Positions 9,782 to 26,554 of a stretch of DNA of 64,000 bases are shown one piece after another (position 1 is the stretch's first letter; each line of letters opens with the position of its first letter). Origin of the DNA: Anaeromyxobacter sp. (GTDB lineage Bacteria; Myxococcota; Myxococcia; Myxococcales; Anaeromyxobacteraceae); NCBI GenBank assembly GCA_049840735.1, contig JASGJN010000021.1, forward strand, positions 32,001 to 96,000, read 5' to 3'. The notes under the pieces were generated by a model. It made no database searches, was not told the DNA's origin, and was given only the letters and a program-made list of their open reading frames with translations. The position numbers were made by a program, and so were the translations under genes.

Positions 9782-11104
9782 ATGCCTGCCATGACCCTGC
9801 TCCCGGCGCTGCTCCTGGTCGTCACCGCAGCTTCACCCGAGGCGCCTCTCCGGCTCGAAGCCCTGGCTTCGACGTCCGGCGCCGGGGTGGAGCGGATCCT
9901 CGACGGCGATCCGACGACCACATGGTCGCCGGAGGGCGATCCCAGGGACGAGGGGATCCTGCTCCGGTTCGGGGAGACGGTGAAGGCCGACGGGGTGGAG
10001 GTGGTCACCTGCGCCGGCGCCTCGAGGTTCACGGCCTTCGCCGACGGCTTCGAGCTCGGCCTCTACGAGTACCAGGAGAAGAAGGGCGCGCACGCCGCGA
10101 TCTGGGCCGAGATGGGCCCGGACGAGTTCGACGAGCTCCGCTCGCTCTTCCTGCGCGTGGACTCCGGCACCGGCTGCATCGCCGAGCTCAGCTTCCTGAA
10201 GGACGGCAAGCCCCTGCCGGTGTCGCCGCCGCGCCAGGTCGCGGGCCGGCTCACCGCCACCTCGACCCTCCCGCCCGCCCCCGCCTACCATGCCAGCTAC
10301 CTCTTCGACGGCCGGCTCGACTTCGGCTGGGTCGAGGGAGCCGCCGGCAGCGGGGCCGGTGAGGGCGTGACCATCGAGCTGGAGAAGCCGGTGACGCTCA
10401 CCGGCCTCGAGGTCTGGAACGGCTACCAGCGCTCCGAGGCCCACTTCACGCGCAACGCCCGCGCGCGCGGCGTCACGGTGAGCCTCGATGGCCGCCCGCC
10501 CATCCCGCTCGAGCTCCGCGACGAGCAGGGGAGCCGAATCCACCTCCTCCCCGCCGGTCCGCCGGCCAAGCGGATCACCCTGCGGGTGACGTCCGCCTAC
10601 CCTGGCCTCAAGTACCCGGACCTCGTGCTCTCGGAGCTCCGGCTCTGGGACGCCGAGGGGGCGCTGCGCGTCGCCACCTCCGACCGCGAGGCCATGAAGC
10701 GGGCGCTGCTCGAGCAGGCGAAGCCCACGATCCTGGCCGCGTTCATGGACCGCAAGCTCCAGGCCTGGGAGACCCCCAAGCTCCCCGCCCAGAGCCTCAA
10801 GCTCCGCTCCGACCACACCTTCGTCGCCTACCAGTCCTGCTCTTCCCGCGCCCGCTGCCTCCGCGAGGCGATGGACGGCACCTGGGTGCTCTCCGGCTCG
10901 GACGCGGGCAGCGCCGAGATCGAGCTCTTCGCCCGCGCCCACCGCACCGACGAGAACACCGACCCCTACGCGCCCGGCGGGGCCTACCAGCGCGAGTCCA
11001 CCCGCATCGCCGGCGGCAAGCTGCGCATCACCGTGCCCGCTCCCGGCTCGGTCAAGGTCAGCGGCAAGCTCCTCGACCGCGAGCTGAAGGTCGCCGACAG
11101 GTGA
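9782..11104 (+). CDS. Secreted protein with discoidin-like / NADase-type glycan-binding domains
   Basis: Signal peptide; LDGDPTTTW, LFDGRLDFGWVEG and VWNGYQRS motifs; start may be 9791. Confidence 0.65.
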   Translation: MPAMTLLPALLLVVTAASPEAPLRLEALASTSGAGVERILDGDPTTTWSPEGDPRDEGILLRFGETVKADGVEVVTCAGASRFTAFADGFELGLYEYQEKKGAHAAIWAEMGPDEFDELRSLFLRVDSGTGCIAELSFLKDGKPLPVSPPRQVAGRLTATSTLPPAPAYHASYLFDGRLDFGWVEGAAGSGAGEGVTIELEKPVTLTGLEVWNGYQRSEAHFTRNARARGVTVSLDGRPPIPLELRDEQGSRIHLLPAGPPAKRITLRVTSAYPGLKYPDLVLSELRLWDAEGALRVATSDREAMKRALLEQAKPTILAAFMDRKLQAWETPKLPAQSLKLRSDHTFVAYQSCSSRARCLREAMDGTWVLSGSDAGSAEIELFARAHRTDENTDPYAPGGAYQRESTRIAGGKLRITVPAPGSVKVSGKLLDRELKVADR

Positions 11105-11907
11105 CCGCCTCGGTCCGCCACGCCGCCCGCGCGCTCCTCCCGCTCGGCCTGCGGGTGGCCCTGCGGCGCGCGCCGGCCCTGCTGCGCAGCGCGTTCCAGC
11201 CGGCCCTCCCGCTGCTGCCGCCGGGCGGCCGAGCCACCTTCGGACACGTCCAGGCCCAGCGCGCCACCCCGCTGCGCCGCGCCGGCACGATGTACGGCGA
11301 GGCGCTCCAGCGCGGCAAGGAGCAGAACGTGGCCCGCGCCGCGGCGCTGCTCGACGGGCTGGTGATCGGGCCTTTCGAGACCTTCTCCTGGCACCGGACC
11401 GTGGGCGCGCCGCTCCGGCTGCGCGGCTTTGCCCCTGGCCCGGAGGTGCGCGGCGGGGAGGTGGTGGCCGGGGTCGGCGGCGGCGCCTGCCAGGTGGCCA
11501 ACCTGGTCTGCTGGCTCGGGCTCCACGCCGGGCTGGAGCTGGTCGAGCGGCACGGCCACGACGTCGACCTCTTCCCCGACCACGAGCGGACCGCGCCCTT
11601 CGGCTCCGGCGCCACCGTGTTCTTCCCCACCCGCGACCTGCGCCTGCTGAACCCCGGACCCTCCCCGCTGCTGCTCACGCTGGAGGTCCGCGACGGCTGG
11701 CTGCACGGCGCGGCGCGGCTCACCCGCGACCCCGGGCTGCGCTGGGAGCTGCAGGAGCGCGAGCACCACTTCGTGCGCGAGCCGGACGGCGTCTATCGCC
11801 AGAACCGGCTCTGGATCCGGACGCTGCGCGGGGACGAGCTGGTCGCGGAGGCCGAGGTGGCCGCCAACCGGGCGCGGGTCCTCTACGCGGTGCCCGGGCT
11901 GGGCTGA
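11101..11907 (+). CDS. VanW family protein
   Basis: IGPFETFSW...VGGGACQVAN...ELVERHGH...FGSGATVF motifs; GTGA overlap with upstream gene. Confidence 0.85.
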   Translation: MTASVRHAARALLPLGLRVALRRAPALLRSAFQPALPLLPPGGRATFGHVQAQRATPLRRAGTMYGEALQRGKEQNVARAAALLDGLVIGPFETFSWHRTVGAPLRLRGFAPGPEVRGGEVVAGVGGGACQVANLVCWLGLHAGLELVERHGHDVDLFPDHERTAPFGSGATVFFPTRDLRLLNPGPSPLLLTLEVRDGWLHGAARLTRDPGLRWELQEREHHFVREPDGVYRQNRLWIRTLRGDELVAEAEVAANRARVLYAVPGLG

Positions 11908-13387
11908 TCAGCGCCCGTGGTTCCGCGCCAGCGAGCGCGGCCGCACCTGCGACGGGTTCCGCCAGTCGCCGAGCCGCGCCAGCAGGTCCTCGTCGCCGTC
12001 CGCCCGCGCGCGCTCCAGGAGGCCCTCCCACACGTCCTCGCGGACGTAGGCGTAGTCCGGCGAGAGCGCAACCACCGGCGCGTCCGCGCGCTGGGGCGCC
12101 AGCGCGGTCCACTCGCCCGGCCGGATCCCCCAGGCGATCCGGCCCACCTCGCGCCGGTCCAGCTCCGGCTCCGGTGCCCAGCTCATGGCGTCGCGCCCGG
12201 TCTCCGTGGTCGTAGAGGAAGGCCAGCCCCTGCTGCGCGATGAGCAGCGCGGGGAGCGGCCGCGGCAGCTCCGTCAACAGCTCGCGGTAGAGCCCCCAGG
12301 GCGGCTGGCGCACCGCGCCGATCCCACCCCTCGCGCCCGGCCAGGCCAGGGCCAATCCCAGCGCCACCAGCAGCGCGGGCACCGCGCGCAGCAGGCGCGG
12401 CCAGGGCAGCGGCGCCGGCCAGGCCAGCACCAGCAGCGGCGCCGCCAGCGCCGGGGCGGCCAGCGCCAGCCTGTAGCCGAGGTCCAGCAGATCGTCGCGC
12501 CAGGGGATGGCCAGGCAGGCGGCCAGCGGCAGCGCGAGGGCCGCCAGCGCCGGGCGCGCCGCAGGGCGCCGGAGCCAGGCCAGGGCCGCCAGCGGCAGCG
12601 CCGCCCACCCCGCCCAGAGCTCGCCGGCCTGCCCGGCAGGGATCGGCCGCAGCTTCAGGTAGCCCGCCGGCGACGGCCAGCCTGGCGAGAGGCGCAGCTG
12701 CCCGCCCAGCCGCTCCAGGTCGGCCGGGTGGAGCAGGTTGGGCAGCGCCCAGCTGGCCAGGGCAAAGGCCAGCGCCGCCACCAGGCCGGCCGCCAGCACC
12801 CCCGCCGCCGCGCCCATGCCGCGACGCGCCGTGACCAGCCCCAGCCCGCCGCCGATCGCCGCCAGCGCCAGCAGCGCCGCGCCGAGCCGGTGGGCGGTGG
12901 CCGCCAGCAGCAGCGCCACGGCCAGCACCGCCGCGCGACCCAGGCCGGGCCGCGCCCGGACCAGCCCCATCGCCAGCAGGGCCGGGGCCACCACCCCGAG
13001 CTGCTTGGGGAACTCCGCCGCGAGCTGCCCCAGCGTGGGCGAGGCCGCCGCCCAGGCCGCCAGCGCCAGCGCACCCTCCTCCCGCCCCGCCAGCCGCGCC
13101 CCGGCCGCCGCCGCCGCGGGCACCGCCAGCGCCGCCAGCAGCGCCGAGCCCAGCTTCACGCCCAGCTCCGGATCCCGCGCCGCCCAGGCCGCCGCCGCGA
13201 GGAAGCGGAGCACCCAGCTCGCGTCCGGCGCGTGCAGCCGGCCGGTGGCCAGCAGCCGCTCGGCCTGGACCACGTAATAGTAGCCGTCGGTCCCCAGCGG
13301 CCCCGGGCTGGCCAGCAGCGCCAGCAGCCGCGCCGCCACCGCCGCCGCGGCCAGCGCGGCCACGGCCCACCAGGCCCGGCGGCTCAC
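11908..13387 (-). CDS. Multi-pass membrane protein (GT-C-like topology, inferred); frameshift at ~12204
   Basis: GTG start overlapping the vanX-like stop; GTDGYYY motif after TM1; many TM helices; C-terminus in ORF 11908..12186. Confidence 0.6.
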
Positions 13388-13989
13388 CGCGCCGGCGCCG
13401 GGCAGAGCGGCGCCTCCTCGATGGGCCAGCGGCCGCTCCCGGCGGCGTGGAAGTGCCACCACTCGGTCCGGATGCCGCCGAACCCCGCCGCCTCCATGGC
13501 CTCCCGCAGGAGCTTGCGGTTGGCCGCCGCCTCCGGGCTGGCCGGGGCGTCGGGCGCGGCGGCTGGGGTGAAGTCGTCGAAGGGGGTAGGCATGACCACC
13601 GGCGCGCCGCTGGCGTCGACCAGGGTCAGGTCCACCGCGCCCCCGCGGTTGTGGACCGAACCCCTGGCCGGATCCGCCACGTACCGTGCGTCCGGGACCC
13701 GCCGCCACATCTCGCGCTGCACCGCCGGCGGGCGATAGCAGTCCCACACCAGGAGGCCGTACCCGCGCTGCTCCAGCCAGGCCTGGGCCCGGGCCAGCGC
13801 CTCCGCCGCGGGGCGGCGCAGCAGGCAGCGCGCGCAGGGGTAGACCGCGGCGTGGAGGAAGTTGTCCGGGGTGGCGTAGCGCAGGTCCAGCCGGACGCCC
13901 GGGGCGACCGTGGTCACGTCCACCAGCTGGGGGACGGCGGCCGGACCCCCGGTCGACAGCAGGGCGAGCAGCAGGGCGGGGGCGAGCAT
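13384..13989 (-). CDS. D-alanyl-D-alanine dipeptidase (VanX/DdpX, peptidase M15) with signal peptide
   Basis: LRYATPDNF, DCYRP, SVHNRGGAVDLTL and EWWHF motifs. Confidence 0.9.
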   Translation of the reverse strand: MLAPALLLALLSTGGPAAVPQLVDVTTVAPGVRLDLRYATPDNFLHAAVYPCARCLLRRPAAEALARAQAWLEQRGYGLLVWDCYRPPAVQREMWRRVPDARYVADPARGSVHNRGGAVDLTLVDASGAPVVMPTPFDDFTPAAAPDAPASPEAAANRKLLREAMEAAGFGGIRTEWWHFHAAGSGRWPIEEAPLCPAPAR

Positions 13990-14095: not shown

Positions 14096-15469
14096 ATGCG
14101 CCTCCTGCTGCACACCACCCCCGCCGTGCTCGACGGCGACCTCGACCACCCGCGGCCCTTCGGCCTCGTCGCCGAGCTGGTGGCGGCCGACGCCGCGGAG
14201 GGCGCGCTGGTGATCGAGGCCGCCAGCTGGGACGAGGCGGTGTCCGCCGGCGCCGCCGTCCGCGCCGCGCCGCACCTCTCTCGCCTGCCGCTCTTCCTGG
14301 CCGAGCGCCCCGCCGGCGACGAGCCCGCCGTGGCCGGCCAGCTGTTCGACGGCCTGCACCTGGGCGACCTCCGCGCCCGGGCCGCGCCCATCCTCAGCGA
14401 GGGGTCCCGCTTCGCCCACCGCGCCAACGCGCCGGGCGAGGCGCTGGCGCAGTACCTGGCCTGCCGCCCCCAGGCGCGCCTCCACCCGATCCGCGACTGG
14501 CGCGCCCCCGGCTACTACCGCTACCCGGTGGTGGACGCGCTCTTGGGCGCCTCGGAGAACGTCTTCACCTGGCTCGACCGCTGGGCGGCGCGCCACGTGC
14601 TCGACCTGGACATCGTGGTGGACCGGCTGCGGCTCTGCGACGCCTGCAGCTCGGCCCACCTCAGCTACCTCGACGTCTGCCCGTCCTGCGCCAGCCTCGA
14701 CATCGTCCACACCCGCCTGCTGCACTGCTTCACCTGCGCCCACGTGGGTCCGCGCGAGGCGTTCGTGCAGGGCGACCACCTGAGCTGCCCCAAGTGCGAG
14801 GCCGTGCTGCGCCACATCGGCGTGGACTACGACCGGCCCATCGAGCAGCAGCAGTGCCGGCACTGCAAGCACCTCTTCGTGGACGCCGACGTGCGCAGCG
14901 CCTGCATGGCCTGCCAGGCCACCAGCAGCCCCGAGCACCTGCCCTCGCGCGCCATCGGCCTCTACCGCCTGGGCGGCGCCGGCCTGCTGCTGGCCCGCCA
15001 GGGCAACCTGTCCCCGGTCCTCTCCGGCCTGGACATGGTCAACTACATCGGCCCGGCGCTGTTCGAGCGGCTCATCGACTGGCAGGTCGCCCTGGCGCGG
15101 CGCTACCCGGAGAGCCACTTCTTCAGCGTCATCGGCCTGCGGGTGGCCAACCTCTCGCGCCTGGTGGAGACCCTGGGGCGCTCCGGCACCGCCGCGCTGG
15201 TGGACAGCTTCGCCGAGCGGCTGCGGGCCATGCTGCGCGTCTGCGACGTGACCACCCGCAGCGACGAGCACCTCTGGCTGCTGGCGCCCCACACCGATGC
15301 CAAGGGCGCCGGCTGCCTGATCGGGCGCATCGAGAAGCTCACCGAGGCCACCCGCCAGCCCAGCGGGCTCAAGCTGGAGCTGGGCTCGACGGTGGGCTCC
15401 ATCCCGGGCGAGGACGTGCCCACCGAGGGCAGCCAGCTGATGGGCGTGCTGGCCTCGCGGCTGGAGTGA
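14096..15469 (+). CDS. TackOD1-like multi-CxxC zinc-ribbon protein with degenerate GGDEF domain (putative c-di-GMP receptor)
   Basis: Six CxxC pairs (CDAC, CPSC, CFTC, CPKC, CRHC, CMAC), LRHIGVDYDRP; RVCD I-site followed by non-catalytic SDEHL. Confidence 0.7.
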   Translation: MRLLLHTTPAVLDGDLDHPRPFGLVAELVAADAAEGALVIEAASWDEAVSAGAAVRAAPHLSRLPLFLAERPAGDEPAVAGQLFDGLHLGDLRARAAPILSEGSRFAHRANAPGEALAQYLACRPQARLHPIRDWRAPGYYRYPVVDALLGASENVFTWLDRWAARHVLDLDIVVDRLRLCDACSSAHLSYLDVCPSCASLDIVHTRLLHCFTCAHVGPREAFVQGDHLSCPKCEAVLRHIGVDYDRPIEQQQCRHCKHLFVDADVRSACMACQATSSPEHLPSRAIGLYRLGGAGLLLARQGNLSPVLSGLDMVNYIGPALFERLIDWQVALARRYPESHFFSVIGLRVANLSRLVETLGRSGTAALVDSFAERLRAMLRVCDVTTRSDEHLWLLAPHTDAKGAGCLIGRIEKLTEATRQPSGLKLELGSTVGSIPGEDVPTEGSQLMGVLASRLE

Positions 15470-15473
15470 GCCC

Positions 15474-16754
15474 GTGCCGACCGCGCTCGACGCCACCACG
15501 CTGGTGCTCAAGTTCTTCCCGCTGGTGCTGCTCTTCGAGCTGCCGGTCTACCTGATCATCTGGCTGGGCGCGCTGCTGTGGGCCCGGGATCGGCGCCGCA
15601 CCCCGCCCGCGGACGACTACCTGCCCTCGGTGAGCTGCCTCGTCACCTGCTACGCCGAGGGCAAGGACGTCGGGATCACCATCCGGACGCTGCTCGAGCA
15701 GCTCTACCCCGGGCTCATCGAGATCATCGTGGTGGTGGACGGCGCGGTGCAGAACCGGGCCACCTACCAGGCCGCCCGCGACTGGCAGGCCGAGGCGCGC
15801 AGCTACCCCATGCGCGTGCTCAAGGTCCTGCCCAAGCGGACCCGCGGCGGCCGCGTGTCCAGCCTCAACGCGGCCCGCCTCTTCGCCCGGGGCGAGATCA
15901 TCCTCACCCTCGACGGCGACACCTCCTTCGACAACGACATGGTCTGGCAGGTGACGCGCCCCTTCGCCGATCCCGGCGTGGGCGCCGCCTCCGGCGCGCT
16001 GCGGCTGCGCAACGCCAAGGCCAGCCTGCCGGCACGGCTGCAGGCGCTGGAGTACATGCTCTCCATCCAGCTGGCCCGGACCGGGCTCTCGGCGCTGGGG
16101 ATCGTCAACTGCATCTCCGGCGCGTTCGGCGCCTTCCACCGCGACCTGGTGGACCGGCTGGACGGATGGGACGCCGGCACGGCCGAGGACCTGGACATCG
16201 TCCTGCGCATCAAGAAGCGGGCCGGTGGCGCCCGGAGCCAGATCGTCCACACGCCCCTGGCCATGGGCCACACCGACGGCCCCACCACGTGGAAGGGCTT
16301 CTTCAAGCAGCGGCTGCGCTGGGACGGTGACCTCTACTATCTCTACGTCCGCAAGCACGGCCGCAGCCTCAAGCCCAGCCTGCTGGGCTGGCGCAACTAC
16401 GTGATGCTGCTCTGGACCGGCATCTACTTCCAGCTGATCATGCCCTTCGTGATCGTGGCCTCCACGATCTGGATGCTCCTGAGCGCCTCGGCCGCCTCGC
16501 TGCTGCTGGTGCTGGGGCTGGTGCTGGCCTTCTACACGCTCGCCACCCTGGGCCTGTTCCTCACCTACCTCTGGCTCCTCTCCGAGCGGCGCGCCCACGA
16601 CTGGCCCTACCTGCGCTTCATCCCGCTCTTCCCCCTCTTCGCCTTCGCCACCCGCGTCTGGAACGGCTTCGCCACGCTGGCCGAGCTCGTCACCCGGCAG
16701 CACCTCGACTCCTCCATGGCGCCGTGGTGGGTGCTCAGGAAGACCCGCTTCTGA
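15474..16754 (+). CDS. Processive GT2 polysaccharide synthase (PgaC/HasA/NodC-like)
   Basis: LDGDT (DxD), TAEDLD and QRLRW (QxxRW) motifs; N- and C-terminal TM helices. Confidence 0.85.
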   Translation: MPTALDATTLVLKFFPLVLLFELPVYLIIWLGALLWARDRRRTPPADDYLPSVSCLVTCYAEGKDVGITIRTLLEQLYPGLIEIIVVVDGAVQNRATYQAARDWQAEARSYPMRVLKVLPKRTRGGRVSSLNAARLFARGEIILTLDGDTSFDNDMVWQVTRPFADPGVGAASGALRLRNAKASLPARLQALEYMLSIQLARTGLSALGIVNCISGAFGAFHRDLVDRLDGWDAGTAEDLDIVLRIKKRAGGARSQIVHTPLAMGHTDGPTTWKGFFKQRLRWDGDLYYLYVRKHGRSLKPSLLGWRNYVMLLWTGIYFQLIMPFVIVASTIWMLLSASAASLLLVLGLVLAFYTLATLGLFLTYLWLLSERRAHDWPYLRFIPLFPLFAFATRVWNGFATLAELVTRQHLDSSMAPWWVLRKTRF

Positions 16755-18886
16755 TGGCCCGCCCGATCTCCCTCGCGCGGACCGCGCTCCTCGCCCTCGC
16801 GGCCCCGGCCCTGGCCGCGGCCGCGCCGCTCGGCCTGCCCGAGCTGGAGGCGGCGCTGGACGGGCGCGACGAGGTCCGGGCGGCCTCGGCCGACCTGGCG
16901 CTGGCCGACGCCCAGGCCGCGCGCGCGCAGGGCGACGGCGGCCTGCGGGCCACCACCAGCGCGGTGGTGGGGGCGCTCTCCGAGCCGCAGTGGCCGCTCG
17001 GCACCAGCCGCGACTACGGCTCGCTGGGGCTGGCGCTGGGGCTGCGCTACCCGCTGCTGGGCTCGGCCGCCGAGGAGCGGCTGGCGGTGGCCACCGCGCG
17101 GCTGGACGCGCTCACCGCCCAGGCCCGCCGCGACGCGGCCCGGCTGCGGCTGCGGCGCGAGCTGCGCGAGAGCTTCTTCGGCTACGCCCAGGCCCAGGCC
17201 CACCTCGCGCTGGCCGAGGCCTTCCTGGCCGACGCCCCGCGCATCCGCGCGGTGCTCCGCCGCCGGCAGGCGGCCGGGCTGGTGCTGGAGAGCGACCGCC
17301 GCCAGATGGAGCTGGCCTTCGCCCGCGCCGAGCGCGCGCGAGACGGGGCCGCGGCGGAGCTGGCGCAGCGGCGCGAGGAGCTGCGCCGCTGGTCGGCGGC
17401 CTTCGACGGCCAGGTGACGCTCCCGCCTCCAGCCGCGCTGCGCGGGGGCGGGGAGGCGCTGGCCCAGGAGCTGGGCTCGCGCCGCGCCGCCGCCCGCACC
17501 GCGCCGCTGGCCGAGCTGGAGGCGCCCGGGACCTCGCTGCTGGCCGGCGCGCGGGGCAACGTCTTCGTGACCGGGACGCTCCGCCACGACACCGACCTGG
17601 GCAACGGGGGCAGCGTGGTGGCGGGCCTGTCGCTGGACTGGCCGCTCTCCCGCGCCAGCGGCGCCGGGCTGGCCGGCGAGCACCAGGCCCGGGTCGAGCA
17701 GGCGCGGCTGGCGGTGGAGCGGCTCCAGGCGGACGAGCAGCGGCTGGCGGTCCAGGCCCTGGGCGAGGCCGAGCAGGCCGCCGCCGAGCTGCGGCTGGCC
17801 CGCGCGCGGGTGGCCAGCGCCGCCGCCGCCGCGGCCGAGGCGGCGCAGCGGGCCCGGCTCTCCGGCGGCGCCGACGGCGCGCCCATCGAGCGCTGGGTGC
17901 GGGCGCGGGCCGCGCTCCACGACGAGCTGCTCGCGCTGCAGCAGGCGGAGGGGCGCCAGGCGCTGGCCGCCGCGCAGGTGGCGCTGGCCTTCGACGGCAG
18001 CGGCATCGCCCCGCTGGTCCCGACCCAGCCGCCGCCCTGCGCCGCCCCGGCGCTGGCGCTGCTGGCCTGGCGCACGCTGGAGGCGCAGCCGCCGCCCGCG
18101 CCGGCCTGCGCCGAGCCGACCGCTGCGCCCGCGCCGGCCGGCCGCGCCTTCTACGCCTGGGACGGCCCGCGCGCCCTGGAGCGCGCCGGGGACGACGCCT
18201 TCTGGCGGACCACCCGCGCCGGGACCCTCTGGCTCTCCTTCGGCGCCGACGCGCTGGCGCGGCTCCAGGAGCCGGCCGCGCGCGAGGCGCTGCGGTCGGG
18301 CCTGCTGCGCCTGCACGAGCGCGGCGTGGGCGTGGCGCTGCTGCTGGGTGAGCCCAGCTGGCTGCGGCCCGGGCAGGAGCAGGCGCTCTTCGCCCTGGTC
18401 CGGTCGCTGGCCGACCTGCCCTTCGACGCCATCCACCTCGACGTGGAGCCGGTGCAGCTCCAGCCGCCGCTCCCCGGCGACCAGGCCTGGACCGCCCTGG
18501 CGCGCCTGGCGCGCGAGACCCGCGCCATCGCCGGGCGCCCGGTGCTGCTCAGCCTGAACTGGCGCGACCTCTCGCCCGCGCCGGGCGCGCCCTGCCCGGC
18601 CTGCGCCGCCGCCGCGGCCGCCGACGAGGTGGTGGTGATGCTGTACGCCACCTCGCCGGAGCTGGTGGAGCAGCGGATGCGCGCGCTGCTGGCGCGCCGC
18701 CCCGCTCCGCGGCTCTGGCTGGCCCAGAGCATCGAGCCGGCGCTGGGGCCGGAGGAGAGCTTCGCCGGCCAGGGGCGAGGTGCGCTGGCGGCGCAGCAGG
18801 ACCGGCTCTCGGGCCTGTCCGCCGATCCCACCTTCGCCGGGTTCGCCGTCCAGAGCCTGGAGGACTTCCTCGAGGCCCGCCCATGA
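16754..18886 (+). CDS. TolC/outer-membrane-factor-like protein fused to a C-terminal glycoside-hydrolase-like domain
   Basis: Signal peptide; two helical repeats with GLRYPLL / GLSLDWPL strands; Pro/Ala linker; C-terminal FDAIHLDVEP and DEVVVMLY; TGATG coupling to GT2. Confidence 0.65.
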   Translation: MARPISLARTALLALAAPALAAAAPLGLPELEAALDGRDEVRAASADLALADAQAARAQGDGGLRATTSAVVGALSEPQWPLGTSRDYGSLGLALGLRYPLLGSAAEERLAVATARLDALTAQARRDAARLRLRRELRESFFGYAQAQAHLALAEAFLADAPRIRAVLRRRQAAGLVLESDRRQMELAFARAERARDGAAAELAQRREELRRWSAAFDGQVTLPPPAALRGGGEALAQELGSRRAAARTAPLAELEAPGTSLLAGARGNVFVTGTLRHDTDLGNGGSVVAGLSLDWPLSRASGAGLAGEHQARVEQARLAVERLQADEQRLAVQALGEAEQAAAELRLARARVASAAAAAAEAAQRARLSGGADGAPIERWVRARAALHDELLALQQAEGRQALAAAQVALAFDGSGIAPLVPTQPPPCAAPALALLAWRTLEAQPPPAPACAEPTAAPAPAGRAFYAWDGPRALERAGDDAFWRTTRAGTLWLSFGADALARLQEPAAREALRSGLLRLHERGVGVALLLGEPSWLRPGQEQALFALVRSLADLPFDAIHLDVEPVQLQPPLPGDQAWTALARLARETRAIAGRPVLLSLNWRDLSPAPGAPCPACAAAAAADEVVVMLYATSPELVEQRMRALLARRPAPRLWLAQSIEPALGPEESFAGQGRGALAAQQDRLSGLSADPTFAGFAVQSLEDFLEARP

Positions 18887-19902
18887 AGATCCGCTTCAGC
18901 GTCCCCGAGGCCACCGACCCCCGCCGCGAGGGGGGCATGCAGCTGCCGCCGCAGCAGGGGAAGCGCACCTCGGCGCGCTGGCGCTGGCTGCTGGTGGTGC
19001 TCCTGGCGCTCAGCCCGGGCCTGCTGGTGGGCGGCTACCTGCTGCGCGGCTGGCTCTGGGTGGACGCGGGCGGCTTCGTCTTCTTCGAGGAGCTGCCGGT
19101 GACGGCGCCCGGCCCGGGCACGGTGGTGGCGGTCCAGGCGGCGGCCGGGAAGCCGGTCGAGCCGGGCGCACCGCTGGTGGAGCTGCAGAACCCGGAGCTG
19201 GCCGCCGAGGCCGCGGCGCTGCAGGCCGCCACGCGCCACGCCGGGCGCAGCAGCCCGGAGCTCGCCGCGCTCGACCGGCAGGTGGCGGCGCTGCGCGCGG
19301 CGCGCCAGGCCCGGCAGGACGAGCTGTCCAGCCTGCGCGCGCTGCAGGCGGCGGGCGCGGCCACGAGGGGCGAGGTGCTGGCCGCGCGCGAGCGGGCCGG
19401 CGCGGCCGAGGCGGCGCTGGCGGCGGCGGAGCGCGACCGGGCCAGCGCGCTGGCGCTGCTCGACGCCAGCGGCCAGACCACGGCCGACCAGGCCAGCCGG
19501 CTGGCGGTGCTGACGGCCCGCCTGGAGGCGCTGAAGGTCGCGGCGCCGGCGGCCGGCCTGGTGGACTCCGTGGTGGTGCAGCGCGGCCAGCGGGTGGCCG
19601 CCGGCGAGCCGCTGCTGGTGCTGCGCCGGGGCGAGCCGCAGGTGGTCGGCTTCCTGCCCGGGCGCGAGCTGGCGCTCAGCACAGGCGACGAGGTCCGGCT
19701 GGTGCTGCCGGACGGCACCACCCTGCGCGGCCGTGTCATCGGCCAGGCGCCCTCGACGCTCCGGCTGCCCGAGGAGCTGTCCAGCTCCTTCGAGCCGCGC
19801 ACCGCCCGGCTGCAGGTGCTGATCGCGCCGGAGGGGCTGCCGCCGCAGGCGCGGGTGCACCGCCTGCCGGTGACGGTCCGGCTGTTCCGGTTCAGGTGGT
19901 GA
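18883..19902 (+). CDS. HlyD family periplasmic adaptor (membrane fusion protein)
   Basis: One TM helix; lipoyl half-motifs VTAPGPGTV...GAPLVEL and VAAPAAGLV...GEPLLVL around a coiled coil; ATGA overlap. Confidence 0.8.
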   Translation: MKIRFSVPEATDPRREGGMQLPPQQGKRTSARWRWLLVVLLALSPGLLVGGYLLRGWLWVDAGGFVFFEELPVTAPGPGTVVAVQAAAGKPVEPGAPLVELQNPELAAEAAALQAATRHAGRSSPELAALDRQVAALRAARQARQDELSSLRALQAAGAATRGEVLAARERAGAAEAALAAAERDRASALALLDASGQTTADQASRLAVLTARLEALKVAAPAAGLVDSVVVQRGQRVAAGEPLLVLRRGEPQVVGFLPGRELALSTGDEVRLVLPDGTTLRGRVIGQAPSTLRLPEELSSSFEPRTARLQVLIAPEGLPPQARVHRLPVTVRLFRFRW

Positions 19903-20729: not shown

Positions 20730-21638
<909 letters not shown>

Positions 21639-21754: not shown

Positions 21755-24037
21755 ATGACCATTGCCGGGGCCGCGCTGGCGGCCAACGCGGTCGAGTTCG
21801 AGCTCACCGTGGGTCCGCACGCGGCCGACGACCTGCTGGTGGTGGCGTTCGAGGCCGAGGAGCGGCTCAGCGCGCCCTACGCGGTGGACGTGACCGTGGC
21901 CATCCGCGAGGGAACCGAGGTGGACGCGGCCGCGCTGGTGGCCGAGCCCGGCTGCCTCACCGTCCAGCTCGGCGACGGGAGCACGCGCTGCTTCGACGGC
22001 ATCGTCTCGGCCGTGCGCCGCTGGGACGAGGGGCCCGCCCAGCTGGAGCGGCGGCTGAGGGTGACGCTGGTGCCCAGCCTCTGGCGCCTCGGCTGCGTCT
22101 TCCGCAGCCGCATCTTCCAGGACCTGACCGTGCCGGAGATCGTGGAGCAGGTGCTCTCCGACGCCGGCATCACCGACCTCGAGCAGGCGCTCTCCGGCGA
22201 CTACGCGAAGCGCGGCTACACGGTGCAGCACCAGGAGACCGACCTCGACTTCGTGCAGCGCCTGCTGGAGGCGGAGGGCATCTTCTACTTCTTCAAGCAC
22301 GCCCAGGGGTCCCACACGCTGGTGCTGGGCGACGCGCCCTCCGTGCACGAGCCCATCGAGGGCGGCGAGGCCTCGCTCCCGTTCCACGCGCAGAGCGGGA
22401 TGACCGGCGGTGAGCAGGTGGACGAGCTGGCCGCGTCGGCGGAGGTGCTGCCGGGCAAGGTCACGCTGCGCGACTTCGACTGGCAGCGCCCCACCACCGA
22501 CCTGACGCAGGCCCGCGACGACGGCGGCGCCGACGCGGCGCTGGAGGTCTACGAGTACCCCGGCGGCTACGTCCAGGGGCGCGACGGCGCCGCGCTGGCC
22601 CGCATCCGGCTGGAGGAGCTCCGCGCCCGCGCCCAGCGCTTCAGCGGCGCCACCAACTGCCGGCGGCTCCTGCCGGGCCGCACCTTCGAGCTGACCGGCC
22701 ACCCGCTGGGCGAGCTGGACGGCGAGTACCTGATCCTCTCCGTGGCCCACCACGGCGACCAGTCCGAGCTGCTCTCCGCGCTGCACCGGCCGGACCGCCG
22801 CGCCGGGGAGCGGCGGGACCCGTTCCGCGCCCGCTTCGAGCTGCAGCGCAAGGACGTGCCCTTCCGCCCGGAGCGCCGCACGCCGCGGCCGCGGGCGCCG
22901 GGCGCGGAGACCGCCATCGTGGTCGGCCCCGCCGGCGAGGAGATCCACACCGACGAGCACGGCCGGGTCAAGGTGCAGTTCCACTGGGACCGCGAGGGCC
23001 AGCGCGACGACCACTCCAGCTGCTGGATCCGCGTGGCCCAGGCCTGGGCCGGCGCGGGCTGGGGCGCGCTCTACCTGCCGCGCATCGGCCAGGAGGTGGT
23101 GGTCGAGTTCCTGGGCGGCGACCCCGACCGGCCCATCGTGACCGGCAGCGTCTACAACGGCGCCAACCCGCCGCCGGTCCAGCTCCCCGGCGAGAAGACG
23201 CGCAGCACCCTGCGCTCCTTCACCAGCCCGGGCGGCGACGGCTTCAACGAGCTGGCCTTCGAGGACGCCGCCGGCCGCGAGCAGGTCTACTTCCACGCCC
23301 AGCGCGACGTCGAGGCGGTGGTGGAGCACGACCGCAGCGAGACCATCGGCGCCAACGACACGCTCACCGTCACCGGGGACCAGTCCGCCACGGTGGGGAA
23401 GAGCCGCGCGGTGAAGGTGACCGAGGACGACCGGCGCACCGTGGGCGGCAGCTCCTTCCTGGAGGTGGGGAAGGACCGGACCCTCACCGTGGGCGGCTCG
23501 CACACCGAGACCGTGGCCGGCCAGCAGGCGGTGAGCGTGGGGGGCGTCCAGAGCGTGACGGTGGCGATGGCCGCCGCGGAGACGGTCGGCCTGGGCAAGG
23601 CCCTCACCGTCGGCGGCGCCTACGCGGTCACGGTGGGCGGCCTCATGAACGAGCTGGTGGGCGGCCTCAAGGCGGAGGAGGTGGGCGGCGCCAAGGTGGA
23701 GGTGGTGGGGGCCAAGAAGACCGAGACCGTGATGAGCTCGCGCACGGTGGCGGTGGGCGGCGAGTCGTCCGAGACGGTCGGGAAGGCCCGCAGCGTGAAG
23801 ATCGGCGGGGACCTGCTCGTCTCCATCGGCGGGAAGCTCACCCAGGCCGTCAAGGCCAAGCACGAGCTGAACGCGAAGGAGATCGTGCTCTCGGCCGACG
23901 ACAAGCTCACCCTCAAGGTCGGCTCGGCCACCATCGAGCTCAAGAAGAGCGGCGACGTGGTGATCAAGGGGGCCAAGGTGGACGTGAAGGCCTCCGGCGC
24001 CATCGTCCTCAAGGCCGCCACCATCTCCGAGAACTGA
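21755..24037 (+). CDS. vgrG: Type VI secretion tip protein VgrG
   Basis: SRIFQD, QHQETDLDFVQRLLEAEGIFYFF, GRVKVQFHWDR, PRIGQEVVVEFLGGDPDRP; gp5-like beta-helix repeats. Confidence 0.95.
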   Translation: MTIAGAALAANAVEFELTVGPHAADDLLVVAFEAEERLSAPYAVDVTVAIREGTEVDAAALVAEPGCLTVQLGDGSTRCFDGIVSAVRRWDEGPAQLERRLRVTLVPSLWRLGCVFRSRIFQDLTVPEIVEQVLSDAGITDLEQALSGDYAKRGYTVQHQETDLDFVQRLLEAEGIFYFFKHAQGSHTLVLGDAPSVHEPIEGGEASLPFHAQSGMTGGEQVDELAASAEVLPGKVTLRDFDWQRPTTDLTQARDDGGADAALEVYEYPGGYVQGRDGAALARIRLEELRARAQRFSGATNCRRLLPGRTFELTGHPLGELDGEYLILSVAHHGDQSELLSALHRPDRRAGERRDPFRARFELQRKDVPFRPERRTPRPRAPGAETAIVVGPAGEEIHTDEHGRVKVQFHWDREGQRDDHSSCWIRVAQAWAGAGWGALYLPRIGQEVVVEFLGGDPDRPIVTGSVYNGANPPPVQLPGEKTRSTLRSFTSPGGDGFNELAFEDAAGREQVYFHAQRDVEAVVEHDRSETIGANDTLTVTGDQSATVGKSRAVKVTEDDRRTVGGSSFLEVGKDRTLTVGGSHTETVAGQQAVSVGGVQSVTVAMAAAETVGLGKALTVGGAYAVTVGGLMNELVGGLKAEEVGGAKVEVVGAKKTETVMSSRTVAVGGESSETVGKARSVKIGGDLLVSIGGKLTQAVKAKHELNAKEIVLSADDKLTLKVGSATIELKKSGDVVIKGAKVDVKASGAIVLKAATISEN

Positions 24038-24039
24038 CC

Positions 24040-26554
24040 ATGGCCCGCGGCGAGCGCATCGCGTACGAGCTGGAGACCGGCGGCTTCGCCGAGGGCCAGC
24101 TGGTGGTCTGGGCCCTGCACGGCCGCGAGGCCCTCAACGAGCCCTTCGCCTTCTCGGTCCGCATCGGGACCCCCGACGGCGACCCGCTGGACCTGGCCGC
24201 CCTCCTGGGCGGCGAGGCGACGCTCACGCTGCGCCGCCCGGACGGCTCGGAGCGGGTGGTGCACGGCGAGGTCGGGCGGGCGCGGCTGGCCGGCGTGGCC
24301 GCCGGCGTGCCCACCTACGAGCTGCAGCTGGTCCCGCGGCTGGCCCGGCTGGCCCACGCCGCCTCCAGCCGCATCTTCCAGGACGTCACCGTGCCGGACC
24401 TGGTGGCCGAGGTCCTGGACGCGCACGGCGTGAAGCACCGCGCCGCGCTGGGGAGCTACCCGCAGCGCGAGTACGTGGTGCAGCACCAGGAGACGGACCT
24501 GGCCTTCGTCTCGCGCCTGCTCGAGGAGGAGGGGATCGGCTTCTGCTTCGAGCACGAGGCCGGCGCCCACACCCTGGTGCTCTTCGACGCCGCCGACGCC
24601 GGCCCCTCGCTGGACGAGGTCCTGCCCCTCCGGCAGGAGGAGCAGGGCGACGGCGACGTCTTCGCCGACCGGCTCGCCGCCGGCGCGGCGCTCCAGCCGC
24701 AGGCGGCGGCCTTGCGGGACTTCGACTTCCAGCGGCCGGCGCTGACGCTGGAGGCGAGGTCCGGCTCGGGCGCGCTGGAGCGGTACGAGTACCCCGCCGG
24801 CATCGCGACCGTCGGCGAGGGGCGCGCCCGCGCCGGCGTCCGGCTGGCCCAGTCGCGGGTCCGCGCCGCCACCTGGGAGGGCGTCACCACCGCCCTGGGG
24901 CTCTCGCCGGGCACGCGCTTCGAGGTGGACGGCACGCCCAGGCTGCGCTGCGTCTCGGTGGTGCACGAGGGGCAGCAGGAGCGCCGCCCCGGCGGCGAGC
25001 TGCTGGCCACCTACCGCAACGCCTTCCGCGCCCTGTCCGGCGACGAGCCCTGGCGGCCGCCGCGCCGGACCCCGCGGCCCCGCGCCCACGGCCTGGAGAC
25101 GGCCCTGGTCACCGGCCCCGGCGGCGAGGAGATCAACGTCGACGCCCACGGCCGGGTGAAGGTGCAGTTCCACTGGGATCGCCAGGGGCAGCGGGACGAC
25201 CGGTCCAGCTGCTGGGTGCGGGTGGCGCAGGCCTGGGCCGGCGCCGGCATGGGCGCCAGCGTGGTGCCGCGCATCGGCCAGGAGGTGCTGATCCGCTTCC
25301 TGGCCGGGGACGCCGACCGGCCGCTGCTGGTGGGCGCCGTCTACGACGGCCAGAACCGGACCCCGGTCTCGCTCCCGGACGACCGGACCCGCAGCACCCA
25401 CCGCTCCGCCTCCAGCCTGGGCAGCGACGGCTTCAACGAGCTCTCCTTCCAGGACCAGGCCGGCGCGGAGCGCGTCTACCTGCACGCCCAGCGCGACCTG
25501 GTCGCCGAGGTGGGCAACGACCGGACCGCCCAGGTGCGCGGCGACGAGGCGGTGGCCATCGGCGGCGACCTGGACCAGACCATCCTGGGCCGGCGCACGC
25601 GCGCGGTGGGCGAGGACCAGGCCAGCGTGGTGGGCGGCGGGGAGACCACGCTGATCGCCGCCGCCCGGGGCGAGACCGTGGGCGGGGACGACACGCAGGG
25701 CGTGGGCCAGGCCCGGAGCCTCACCGTGGGCGGCGCCCGGACGGTGGGCGTGGCCGCGGCCTCGGCCGAGACGGTCGGGGCCGCCGGCGCGCTCACGGTG
25801 GGCGGCGCCTACGCCATCTCCGTCGGGCTCGCCTCCAACGTGGCGGTGGGCGGCGCGCTGCTGCAGCAGGTGGTCGGCGCCAAGACCGTGGTGGTGAACA
25901 AGAGCCAGGAGGAGCGGGTGGGCAAGGACCGCTCCCTCAGGATCATGGGCGAGGACCGGCTCGAGATTCGGGAAGGGCTCCAGCGTCACCGTGGGGAAGG
26001 ACGGCCGCGACGAGGTCGGCAAGCGGCTGGTGGTGGACGTGAAGGAGGGGAGCATGGGGCTGGCCCAGTCCTTCCTGCTCAAGGCGGACACCGTCACGCT
26101 CAAGGTGGGCGGGCGGCCGCTGCTCAACGCCAAGAGCTCCGGCGCGGTGACCTGGGCGGTCTCCTCCCTCACCATCGACGCCAGCGGGAAGCTCACGATC
26201 AAGGGCGCCTCTGTCTCCAAGAAGTCCGGCGAGGGCGGCTCGGGCGCGGCCCGGACGCAGAAGAAGGTGACGGCCAAGGGGAGCGTCAGCGTCCGCGTCC
26301 CCATGAGCCCGGAGCAGGCCGGCCAGAGCCCGCTGGCCTTCGTCCTCGAGTCCACCGACGGCGCCTTCAAGCAGAAGAAGTCGCTCAAGGGGGACAAGGT
26401 GGACGGGGACGGCGGCGTGCAGCTCCCGTTCAAGGACGTGCCGGACGACAAGACCTTCCGGCTCAAGCTGGTGGCGCCGGGCGGGCAGGAGGTGCTGCTC
26501 GCCGACGGCGTGCCGTACCTCCAGCTGTCGGCCGCCCTGAGCGGCCAGGGCTGA
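24040..26554 (+). CDS. vgrG: Second VgrG with C-terminal extension; frameshift at ~25967
   Basis: Same VgrG motifs; removing one T at 25967/25968 continues into ORF 25991..26554. Confidence 0.88.

What the first reader, a model, noticed from the sequence alone, without database searches (positions are those of the whole stretch)
14096..19902. Candidate c-di-GMP-controlled, synthase-dependent polysaccharide system exported through HlyD plus a TolC-hydrolase fusion
Seen: four co-oriented, tightly coupled genes (4-nt gap, TGATG and ATGA overlaps) encoding a Zn-ribbon/degenerate-GGDEF protein, a GT2 with DxD, TAED and QRLRW motifs, a TolC-like fusion protein and a HlyD adaptor. Known: these motifs mark processive synthases (cellulose, PNAG, hyaluronan, chitin). 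Pel, Alg, Pga and Bcs systems export through TPR plus beta-barrel porins, whereas the rhizobial BgsA/BgsB glucan system pairs a GT2 with a membrane fusion protein. Inference: this is a self-contained polymer machine in which the synthase takes the place of the inner-membrane pump of a tripartite channel. The operon has no ABC/RND pump, Wzx/Wzy, deacetylase or porin. I do not recognise it as a named system and the polymer is unknown.
Basis: partly seen in the sequence, partly recalled or inferred. Interest (0 to 1): 0.85.

Follow-up and report, generated by a model that had tools for sequence, protein, structure and literature searches.

The report
Mxd-type polysaccharide operon with TolC-hydrolase channel
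These four tightly packed genes are a relative of the Shewanella Mxd biofilm genes plus an outer-membrane channel gene fused to a chitinase-like domain, and they likely make an N-acetyl-sugar polymer on a c-di-GMP signal and would push it out through their own channel instead of the porins that better-known biofilm polymers use.

Summary
In detail: four coupled genes encode (A) a TackOD1 zinc-ribbon protein with a dead GGDEF domain whose RxxD site is kept in 35 of 37 homologues, (B) a PgaC/NodC-like GT2, (C) a complete TolC fused to a GH18-like TIM barrel, and (D) a HlyD adaptor. It is not an unrecognised system. A, B and D are 35%, 46% and 28% identical to the genes of a Shewanella-type locus that synteny places at mxdABC (the MR-1 sequences themselves were not obtainable). 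What differs is gene C, which replaces mxdD. Its barrel keeps D563/E565 (149 and 148 of 149 homologues) and is fused to TolC in 113 of 114 long relatives. The order A-B-C-D recurs in Aeromonas and other lineages, but TackOD1 is in only 3 of 401 Myxococcota genomes. The synthase-HlyD-TolC model is already proposed for rhizobial BgsAB-TolC and cyanobacterial XcsAB-TolC. Best reading: a c-di-GMP-gated HexNAc-polymer machine with a dedicated duct and a periplasmic clean-up hydrolase; polymer, contacts and export route are untested. This scan has reported the same unit at least four times on other DNA. Verdict: new variant of a known, poorly understood kind.

The parts
14096..15469 (+). Gene A, MxdA-like regulator, 457 aa: divergent N-terminal region (possibly a worn receiver domain, inferred), TackOD1 zinc ribbons, dead GGDEF domain
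14432..14971 (+). TackOD1 domain (aa 113-292), CxxC/HxxC knuckles
   Evidence: Pfam E 2.3e-60; 10 Cys and His210 invariant in 19 of 19
15236..15247 (+). RxxD (R381-V-C-D384) at the I-site position; predicted c-di-GMP site. The catalytic GGDEF position reads RSDEH
   Evidence: aligns to RPGD / RYGGEEF of an intact cyclase; RxxD in 35 of 37 and GG[DE]EF in 0 of 37
15474..16754 (+). Gene B, MxdB-like processive-type GT2, 426 aa, about 3-4 hydrophobic segments, no PilZ extension
16754..18886 (+). Gene C, 710 aa: signal-peptide-like start, TolC protomer, linker, GH18-like barrel
16823..17998 (+). TolC domain (aa 24-415), four membrane strands and two helical repeats
   Evidence: AlphaFold model pLDDT 89.9; Z 20.9, rmsd 4.7, 379 aligned to MtrE
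18140..18874 (+). GH18-like (beta/alpha)8 barrel (aa 463-707)
18434..18448 (+). H561-L-D563-V-E565, matching the GH18 DxDxE motif at the end of strand 4 with the first Asp replaced by His
18883..19902 (+). Gene D, MxdC-like HlyD adaptor, 339 aa, one TM helix (35-55) behind a conserved cytoplasmic tail

Best explanation
This is a four-gene relative of the Shewanella mxd cluster, with an added TolC gene fused to a GH18-like barrel, that likely makes an N-acetylhexosamine-containing biofilm polymer when c-di-GMP rises and is predicted to export it through its own HlyD-TolC duct. Step 1 (inferred from the kept RxxD, the lost catalytic motif and the published c-di-GMP binding of MxdA): A is a receptor, not a cyclase, and switches on B. 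Step 2 (motifs shown, product inferred): B polymerises a UDP-sugar processively and moves the chain across the inner membrane. Step 3 (inferred): D, anchored by one helix and a conserved cytoplasmic tail, couples B to the TolC part of C, so no ABC or RND pump is needed. Step 4 (fold and residues shown, role inferred): the barrel hangs from the periplasmic C-terminus of TolC, outside the duct, and cuts chains that leak or stall.
For: Mxd homology: A 35%, B 46%, D 28% to locus L018. L018 lies between an inorganic pyrophosphatase gene (SO4190) and a sensor kinase gene (SO4173) and has the mxdA-B-C-D gene types in order. Synteny: A-B-C(-D) in 13 of 37 loci and A-B-D in 20 of 37, with unrelated flanks. 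All 14 plasmid records with a B match at E<=1e-30 have a TackOD1 gene next to it. RxxD is kept in 35 of 37 and GG[DE]EF in 0 of 37. HexNAc lean: B scores best on PgaC_IcaA (122 bits) and NodC (73 bits); against single proteins it gives PgaC E 9e-26 and NodC 5e-23 but the BgsA-like glucan synthase only 0.007. The barrel's top folds are Cwp19 (Z 18.0), six GH18 chitinases (16.8-17.7) and the PgaB hydrolase domain (15.9). Its profile aligns to FHGLDLDYE and VMAYD of a chitinase (E 0.021, weak). D563 is kept in 149 of 149 and E565 in 148 of 149. The TolC part is intact. 9 of 15 invariant columns of D lie in its first 45 residues. Precedent: tolC loss abolishes MLG made by BgsAB (PMC13438883).
Against: No polymer, activity or contact was measured, and the Mxd product is itself only 'putative EPS' in the papers seen. 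20 of 37 loci, the Shewanella type among them, have no TolC-barrel gene. The barrel was found on 1 of 5 plasmid or chromid records searched (these are not whole genomes). So the barrel is not a universal part. Identity of B to PgaC and NodC is only about 30% and far below their cut-offs. GH5 mannanases score Z 15.5, only about 2 below the top. The first Asp of DxDxE is His in 112 of 149, and no acid is conserved after M629-x-Y631, so catalysis is not assured. Direct passage through TolC is unproven in both precedents. The MR-1 proteins were not compared directly.
Confidence: 0.6

Rival explanations
1. Same machine, but the product is a glucan or another neutral polymer (cellulose- or MLG-like), and the barrel acts as a glucanase or mannanase.
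For: Both published synthase-HlyD-TolC proposals concern glucans. GH5 and GH1 barrels score Z about 15. A galE-like epimerase gene sits beside the unit in L011 and L020.
Against: B is far closer to PgaC and NodC than to the BgsA-like protein. No cellulose-synthase model is among its 10 NCBIfam matches. The barrel has the GH18 strand-4 and strand-6 motifs.
Confidence: 0.15
2. The product is a short HexNAc oligomer (NodC-like, or cut to size by the barrel) released through TolC as a diffusible molecule or surface decoration, not a matrix polymer.
For: B has few membrane segments and resembles NodC. A small product suits a TolC duct. The hydrolase is fused to the exit channel.
Against: mxd mutants lose aggregation and three-dimensional biofilm structure (PMC3691769), which fits a structural polymer. 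No acyl-transferase or deacetylase gene travels with the unit among the 30 neighbours scanned.
Confidence: 0.13
3. Export is indirect: B glycosylates a lipid or protein carrier, and D with C serves a pump encoded elsewhere to secrete an adhesin or the glycoconjugate.
For: The MLG paper itself leaves an indirect role of TolC open. The best PDB sequence match of B is a 356-aa GT2 named only as a family 2 glycosyl transferase. No pump lies in the operon.
Against: B keeps the full DxD, TED-like and QxxRW set, invariant in 43 of 43. D is welded to B in every locus long enough to tell, and has a family-specific invariant cytoplasmic tail. No pump gene is conserved nearby.
Confidence: 0.12

Closest known systems
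Shewanella oneidensis mxdABCD (SO4180 = mxdA)
   Same: Degenerate-GGDEF c-di-GMP effector, then GT2, then efflux-type adaptor, in this order; homologues at 35/46/28% identity in a syntenic Shewanella-type locus.
   Different: The window has a 710-aa TolC-GH18-like gene between the GT2 and the adaptor and no small mxdD-like gene. The no-TolC loci, L018 among them, form their own branch of the GT2 tree (support 99).
Sinorhizobium BgsA-BgsB-TolC (mixed-linkage glucan)
   Same: c-di-GMP-activated GT2 plus HlyD adaptor, TolC needed, tripartite complex proposed (PMC13438883).
   Different: BgsA binds c-di-GMP with its own C-terminal domain and makes a glucan. The operon is bicistronic, without tolC. 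The BgsA-like and BgsB-like proteins of pSymB are barely similar to B and D (E 0.007 and 0.002; their identification as BgsA/B rests on recalled position and gene types).
Cyanobacterial XcsA-XcsB-XcsC-TolC (cellulose)
   Same: Synthase, HlyD-like protein, a glycoside hydrolase and TolC in a proposed tripartite system (PMC12430437).
   Different: XcsA has a PilZ domain and makes cellulose. XcsC is a separate endoglucanase. In T. vulcanus the genes are scattered. Not compared by sequence here.
Pga/Ica (PNAG) and Pel systems
   Same: PgaC is the closest named GT2 (30%). The barrel resembles the PgaB hydrolase domain (Z 15.9). A receptor with a degenerate GGDEF and RxxD recalls PelD (recalled).
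   Different: No PgaA/PelB porin-TPR, deacetylase or PgaD gene in the unit; B is far below the PgaC cut-off (122 against 422 bits).
GH18 chitinases, Cwp19, PDB 10YV ('putative GH97', Cellulomonas fimi)
   Same: (beta/alpha)8 fold, D-x-E at strand 4, M-x-Y at strand 6; 10YV shares HxxLDVEP (E 1.4e-5).
   Different: No Pfam GH match in 29 members; identity to the solved hydrolases is 9-16%; the first Asp is His; fused to TolC.

Membership tests
Shewanella Mxd system | First gene encodes a degenerate GGDEF protein with an NVDEF motif (MxdA) | tested here: met
   A is 35% identical to the L018 protein (TackOD1 + weak GGDEF, NVAEF at 358-362). NVDEF is from PMC13713693. The window protein reads NLSRL at that place.
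Shewanella Mxd system | Membrane GT2 (MxdB) followed by an efflux-type adaptor (MxdC) | tested here: met
   46% (E 8e-114) and 28% (E 2e-29); gene C intervenes in the window.
Shewanella Mxd system | Direct identity with the MR-1 proteins SO4180-SO4177 | tested here: inconclusive
   MR-1 sequences were not obtainable. L018 is tied to the locus by flanking SO4190 and SO4173 gene types. Gene counts fit within 1 downstream, but 5 genes fill 9 locus numbers upstream. The published promoter primers do not match L018.
Shewanella Mxd system | Fourth gene mxdD (small conserved hypothetical protein) | tested here: not met
   A convergent GST gene follows D after 6 nt. A 129-aa gene follows the adaptor in L018 but not in L015-L017.
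Shewanella Mxd system | c-di-GMP binding by the regulator; biofilm phenotype | not testable with these tools
   Only the RxxD site was checked.
Active diguanylate cyclase | GG[DE]EF active site | tested here: not met
   0 of 37; database labels 'diguanylate cyclase' are misleading.
Processive GT2 synthases | D, DxD, TED-like and QxxRW motifs plus membrane helices | tested here: met
   D89, D147, D149, E238, D239, Q279, R280, R282 and W283 invariant in 43 of 43; hydrophobic segments 7-37 and 309-369.
PgaC/IcaA or NodC equivalogs | Score above the curated cut-off | tested here: not met
   122 against 422 bits and 73 against 550 bits.
Bgs (MLG) system | BgsA-type synthase with a C-terminal c-di-GMP domain | tested here: not met
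   B is 426 aa and ends after its membrane region; 22% identity and E 0.007 to the 669-aa BgsA-like protein.
TolC outer-membrane factors | Two repeats, four barrel strands, long periplasmic helices, signal peptide | tested here: met
GH18 | (beta/alpha)8 fold with DxDxE at strand 4 | tested here: inconclusive
   The fold and D563/E565 are met; the first Asp is His or Asn; no Pfam GH18 match; Cwp19 ties with GH18 within 1 Z.
GH18 | Hydrolysis of GlcNAc linkages | not testable with these tools
   needs an enzyme assay

The most novel reading that the evidence does not exclude
The Mxd family is a widespread, separate class of synthase-dependent secretion in which a small PgaC-like synthase is itself the inner-membrane part of a HlyD-TolC duct and makes an undescribed N-acetylhexosamine polymer. 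The four-gene form carries its own TolC fused to a new glycoside-hydrolase family (319 clusters at 50% identity) whose substrate is that polymer. It would give the cleanest test of polymer export through TolC and a probe enzyme for the unidentified Shewanella matrix sugar.
Probability: 0.4. Interest if true: 0.75.

Novelty: new variant of a known kind. Interest (0 to 1): 0.5.

Why it matters
Whether a polysaccharide can pass through TolC is an open point in two published systems, where tolC is unlinked (and pleiotropic in S. meliloti). Here synthase, adaptor, channel and switch lie in one 5.8-kb cassette that also occurs on a 29-kb mobilisable Aeromonas plasmid, so the question can be tested by moving four genes. 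In the papers seen, the Shewanella Mxd product is still only a putative EPS. The GH18-like barrel predicts its chemistry and may serve as a specific enzyme for it. The work also gives the bacterial TackOD1 domain a context. Novelty is limited because the core is Mxd and the model is in print.

Tried and rejected
Complex prediction of B with D residues 1-72 gave no answer (score 0.00); this is no evidence either way. No RNA holder was listed. The published mxd promoter primer had 0 matches in metagenome contigs, and four primer parts matched none of 14 loci well (best 2-5 mismatches of 15, 6-9 of 21-23). Names of cluster members could not be looked up, so no protein carrying the name MxdA was seen. 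Rakshe 2011 is not held. Supplement searches for the SO4177-SO4181 rows were empty (one scanned file unreadable). No relative in viral contigs. No useful PDB sequence match for A. A receiver domain at the N-terminus of A was not detected by Pfam or hhalign; the only hint is an Atlas structure row with REC-TackOD1 proteins (TM 0.58). The single-sequence model of the barrel gave tied GH5/GH18 matches at Z about 10 and was superseded. Order of events: a first quick tree nested the no-TolC loci among TolC-bearing ones. Without the long outgroups the root was unresolved and a single TolC-bearing clade was not rejected (p-AU 0.52), so loss versus gain of gene C is left open. No sigma-70 promoter and no + strand terminator were found. 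A recent arrival is not supported by GC3.

Full report
Observation. The four ORFs and their junctions are as described. The closest relatives of A in the genome collection come from Anaeromyxobacteraceae. The window lies in G000 contig C21, and each of the four genes has one close copy in that genome. The unit is closed by a divergent D-Ala-D-Ala dipeptidase gene and a convergent GST gene.

Gene A. Pfam gives TackOD1 at 113-292 (E 2e-60) and a sub-threshold GGDEF at 334-423. TackOD1 is described as a cysteine-rich, probably metal-binding domain of unknown function (PMC5847659, passages). Against the intact cyclase encoded at 20730-21638, RVCD of A aligns with the inhibitory RPGD site and RSDEH with RYGGEEF. 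Of 37 A proteins aligned (window plus 36 loci; L011, L038 and L045 left out as split, cut short or not part of the unit), 35 keep RxxD and none has GG[DE]EF. The two misses are distant alphaproteobacterial forms. A is therefore best read as a c-di-GMP receptor (inference).

Gene B. The catalytic motifs are invariant in 43 of 43 sequences. The best named models are PgaC_IcaA and NodC, both far below cut-off. PDB sequence matches are a family 2 GT, hyaluronan synthases and chitin synthase. Against single references B gives 46% to the Mxd-type protein, 30% to PgaC, 31% to NodC and 22% (E 0.007) to a BgsA-like protein of pSymB (the BgsA label is mine, from recalled position and the HlyD-GT2 pair). 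All 14 plasmid records with a match at E<=1e-30 have a TackOD1 gene next to it.

Gene C. A model from 100 sequences (pLDDT 89.9) shows a whole TolC protomer, a flexible linker and an eight-stranded barrel at 463-707. The TolC part matches MtrE, CmeC, CusC and VceC at Z 20-21. The barrel matches Cwp19 (Z 18.0, rmsd 3.7, 243 aligned), GH18 chitinases (Z 16.8-17.7), the PgaB hydrolase domain (15.9) and GH5 mannanases (15.5). The barrel has 319 relatives at E<=0.001 among 50% clusters. Of the best 150, 114 are 600 aa or longer and 113 of those carry the TolC part; 36 are shorter (fragments or stand-alone forms). Among 149 aligned barrels D563 is kept in 149, E565 in 148, M629 in 147, Y631 in 144, and position 561 is His in 112. 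A profile aligns these with FHGLDLDYE and VMAYD of a chitinase, weakly (E 0.021), and with PDB 10YV (E 1.4e-5). Pfam names none of 29 members as a hydrolase. The C-terminus of TolC proteins lies in the periplasm (established knowledge, recalled), so the barrel is likely outside the duct and suited to clearing stray chains, as hydrolases of other synthase systems are thought to do (recalled).

Gene D. A HlyD-type adaptor with one TM helix. Nine of its 15 invariant columns lie in the first 45 residues (19 sequences), which suggests a dedicated cytoplasmic contact (inference).

Distribution. Of 37 loci classified, 13 have the TolC gene right after B (10 whole through D, 3 cut short), 20 have A-B-D, 3 end too early, and 1 is a TackOD1 gene outside the unit. 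The metagenome scan used Shewanella-type patterns, so these numbers are not frequencies. The four-gene form is annotated on an Aeromonas caviae plasmid. The three-gene form occurs in Plesiomonas, Photobacterium, Alisedimentitalea and Phyllobacterium. A Methylocystis plasmid has the barrel and TolC as separate genes right behind the adaptor-like gene, so the link does not depend on the fusion. Flanking genes differ between lineages (30 neighbours scanned). TackOD1 was found in 3 of 401 Myxococcota genomes, the own genome included. A close named relative of B is from Uliginosibacterium (71%). This points to a patchy, probably transferred cassette; the direction was not tested.

Link to Mxd. Papers describe mxdABCD as a c-di-GMP-binding degenerate GGDEF protein with NVDEF (SO4180), a membrane GT2, an efflux-pump-like protein and a hypothetical protein, needed for aggregation and three-dimensional biofilm (PMC3691769, PMC7666153, PMC13713693, PMC11395469, PMC3409153, PMC8683041: passages only). 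Thormann 2006, Rakshe 2011, Gambari 2019 and Maeda 2018 were seen only as citations. Locus L018 has a 462-aa TackOD1-GGDEF protein with NVAEF, a 442-aa GT2, a 351-aa HlyD and a 129-aa gene. Two genes further on lies a sensor kinase, and an inorganic pyrophosphatase gene lies upstream. A supplement table gives SO4190 as inorganic pyrophosphatase and SO4173 as sensor kinase (PMC3271074). The pyrophosphatase piece differs from PDB 6LL7 at 6 of 120 residues (that 6LL7 is a Shewanella enzyme is recalled, as are the tags SO4179-SO4177). The fit is not exact: five genes fill nine locus numbers upstream, and the MR-1 promoter primers do not match, so L018 is another strain or species. A, B and D match it at 35%, 46% and 28%. 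I rate orthology with mxdABC at about 0.9.

Precedent for the export model. PMC13438883 (abstract, introduction, first part of discussion) shows that tolC is needed for MLG and proposes BgsA-BgsB-TolC, while leaving an indirect role open. PMC12430437 (passages) reviews XcsAB-TolC and says it lacks validation. Searches for TackOD1 (one archaeal paper), Mxd terms and the operon design listed no paper on a TolC-hydrolase fusion operon or on the chemistry of the Mxd polymer. The library lacks most subscription papers and bioRxiv supplements, which may bear on this.

Earlier notes of this scan describe the same four-gene unit in four other genomes and the regulator in a fifth, most naming Mxd as closest. 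They are not independent support. My Mxd lead was searched before I read them.

Verdict. A real, conserved operon. It works like a synthase-dependent EPS system of the Bgs/Xcs design and belongs to the Mxd family by three genes. It is a variant by its TolC-GH18-like fourth gene. Shown: anatomy, folds, conserved residues, synteny. Inferred: c-di-GMP binding, polymer type, complex formation, export route and the role of the barrel. Interest 0.5.

Noticed in passing
window 20730-21638 (+): Receiver-GGDEF protein with an intact GGEEF and RxxD, about 830 bp behind the operon; a possible local c-di-GMP source, but not seen at that place in L001.
   Followed up: partly
window 21755-24037 and 24040 to about 26550 (+): Two tandem VgrG-like genes. 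The second ORF runs into non-VgrG-like sequence near 26000 while an overlapping ORF (25991-26554) looks like its continuation: an apparent frameshift or assembly error.
   Followed up: no
window 11101-11907 (+) and 13384-13989 (-): A VanW-like gene and a D-Ala-D-Ala dipeptidase (Peptidase_M15) gene lie upstream of the operon.
   Followed up: no
L008 7797-13619 (Aeromonas caviae plasmid NZ_AP024139): The whole four-gene unit sits on a 29-kb mobilisable plasmid beside toxin-antitoxin and recombinase genes.
   Followed up: partly
L011 8857-13511: In Alisedimentitalea gene A appears split into a TackOD1 protein and a 113-aa protein resembling its C-terminal part, and galE follows the adaptor; a galE-like gene precedes A in L020.
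   Followed up: partly
L050 4445-10837 (Methylocystis plasmid): A lacks RxxD; the barrel and TolC are separate genes, and the annotated barrel gene seems cut short at its start.
   Followed up: partly
W01 (Photobacterium NZ_CP119424) near 268,700 and 512,000: Two copies of TackOD1 on one replicon, each next to a GT2 match.
   Followed up: no
PDB 10YV: A 275-aa protein deposited as 'putative GH97' shares the barrel's motifs and may be a solved stand-alone relative.
   Followed up: partly
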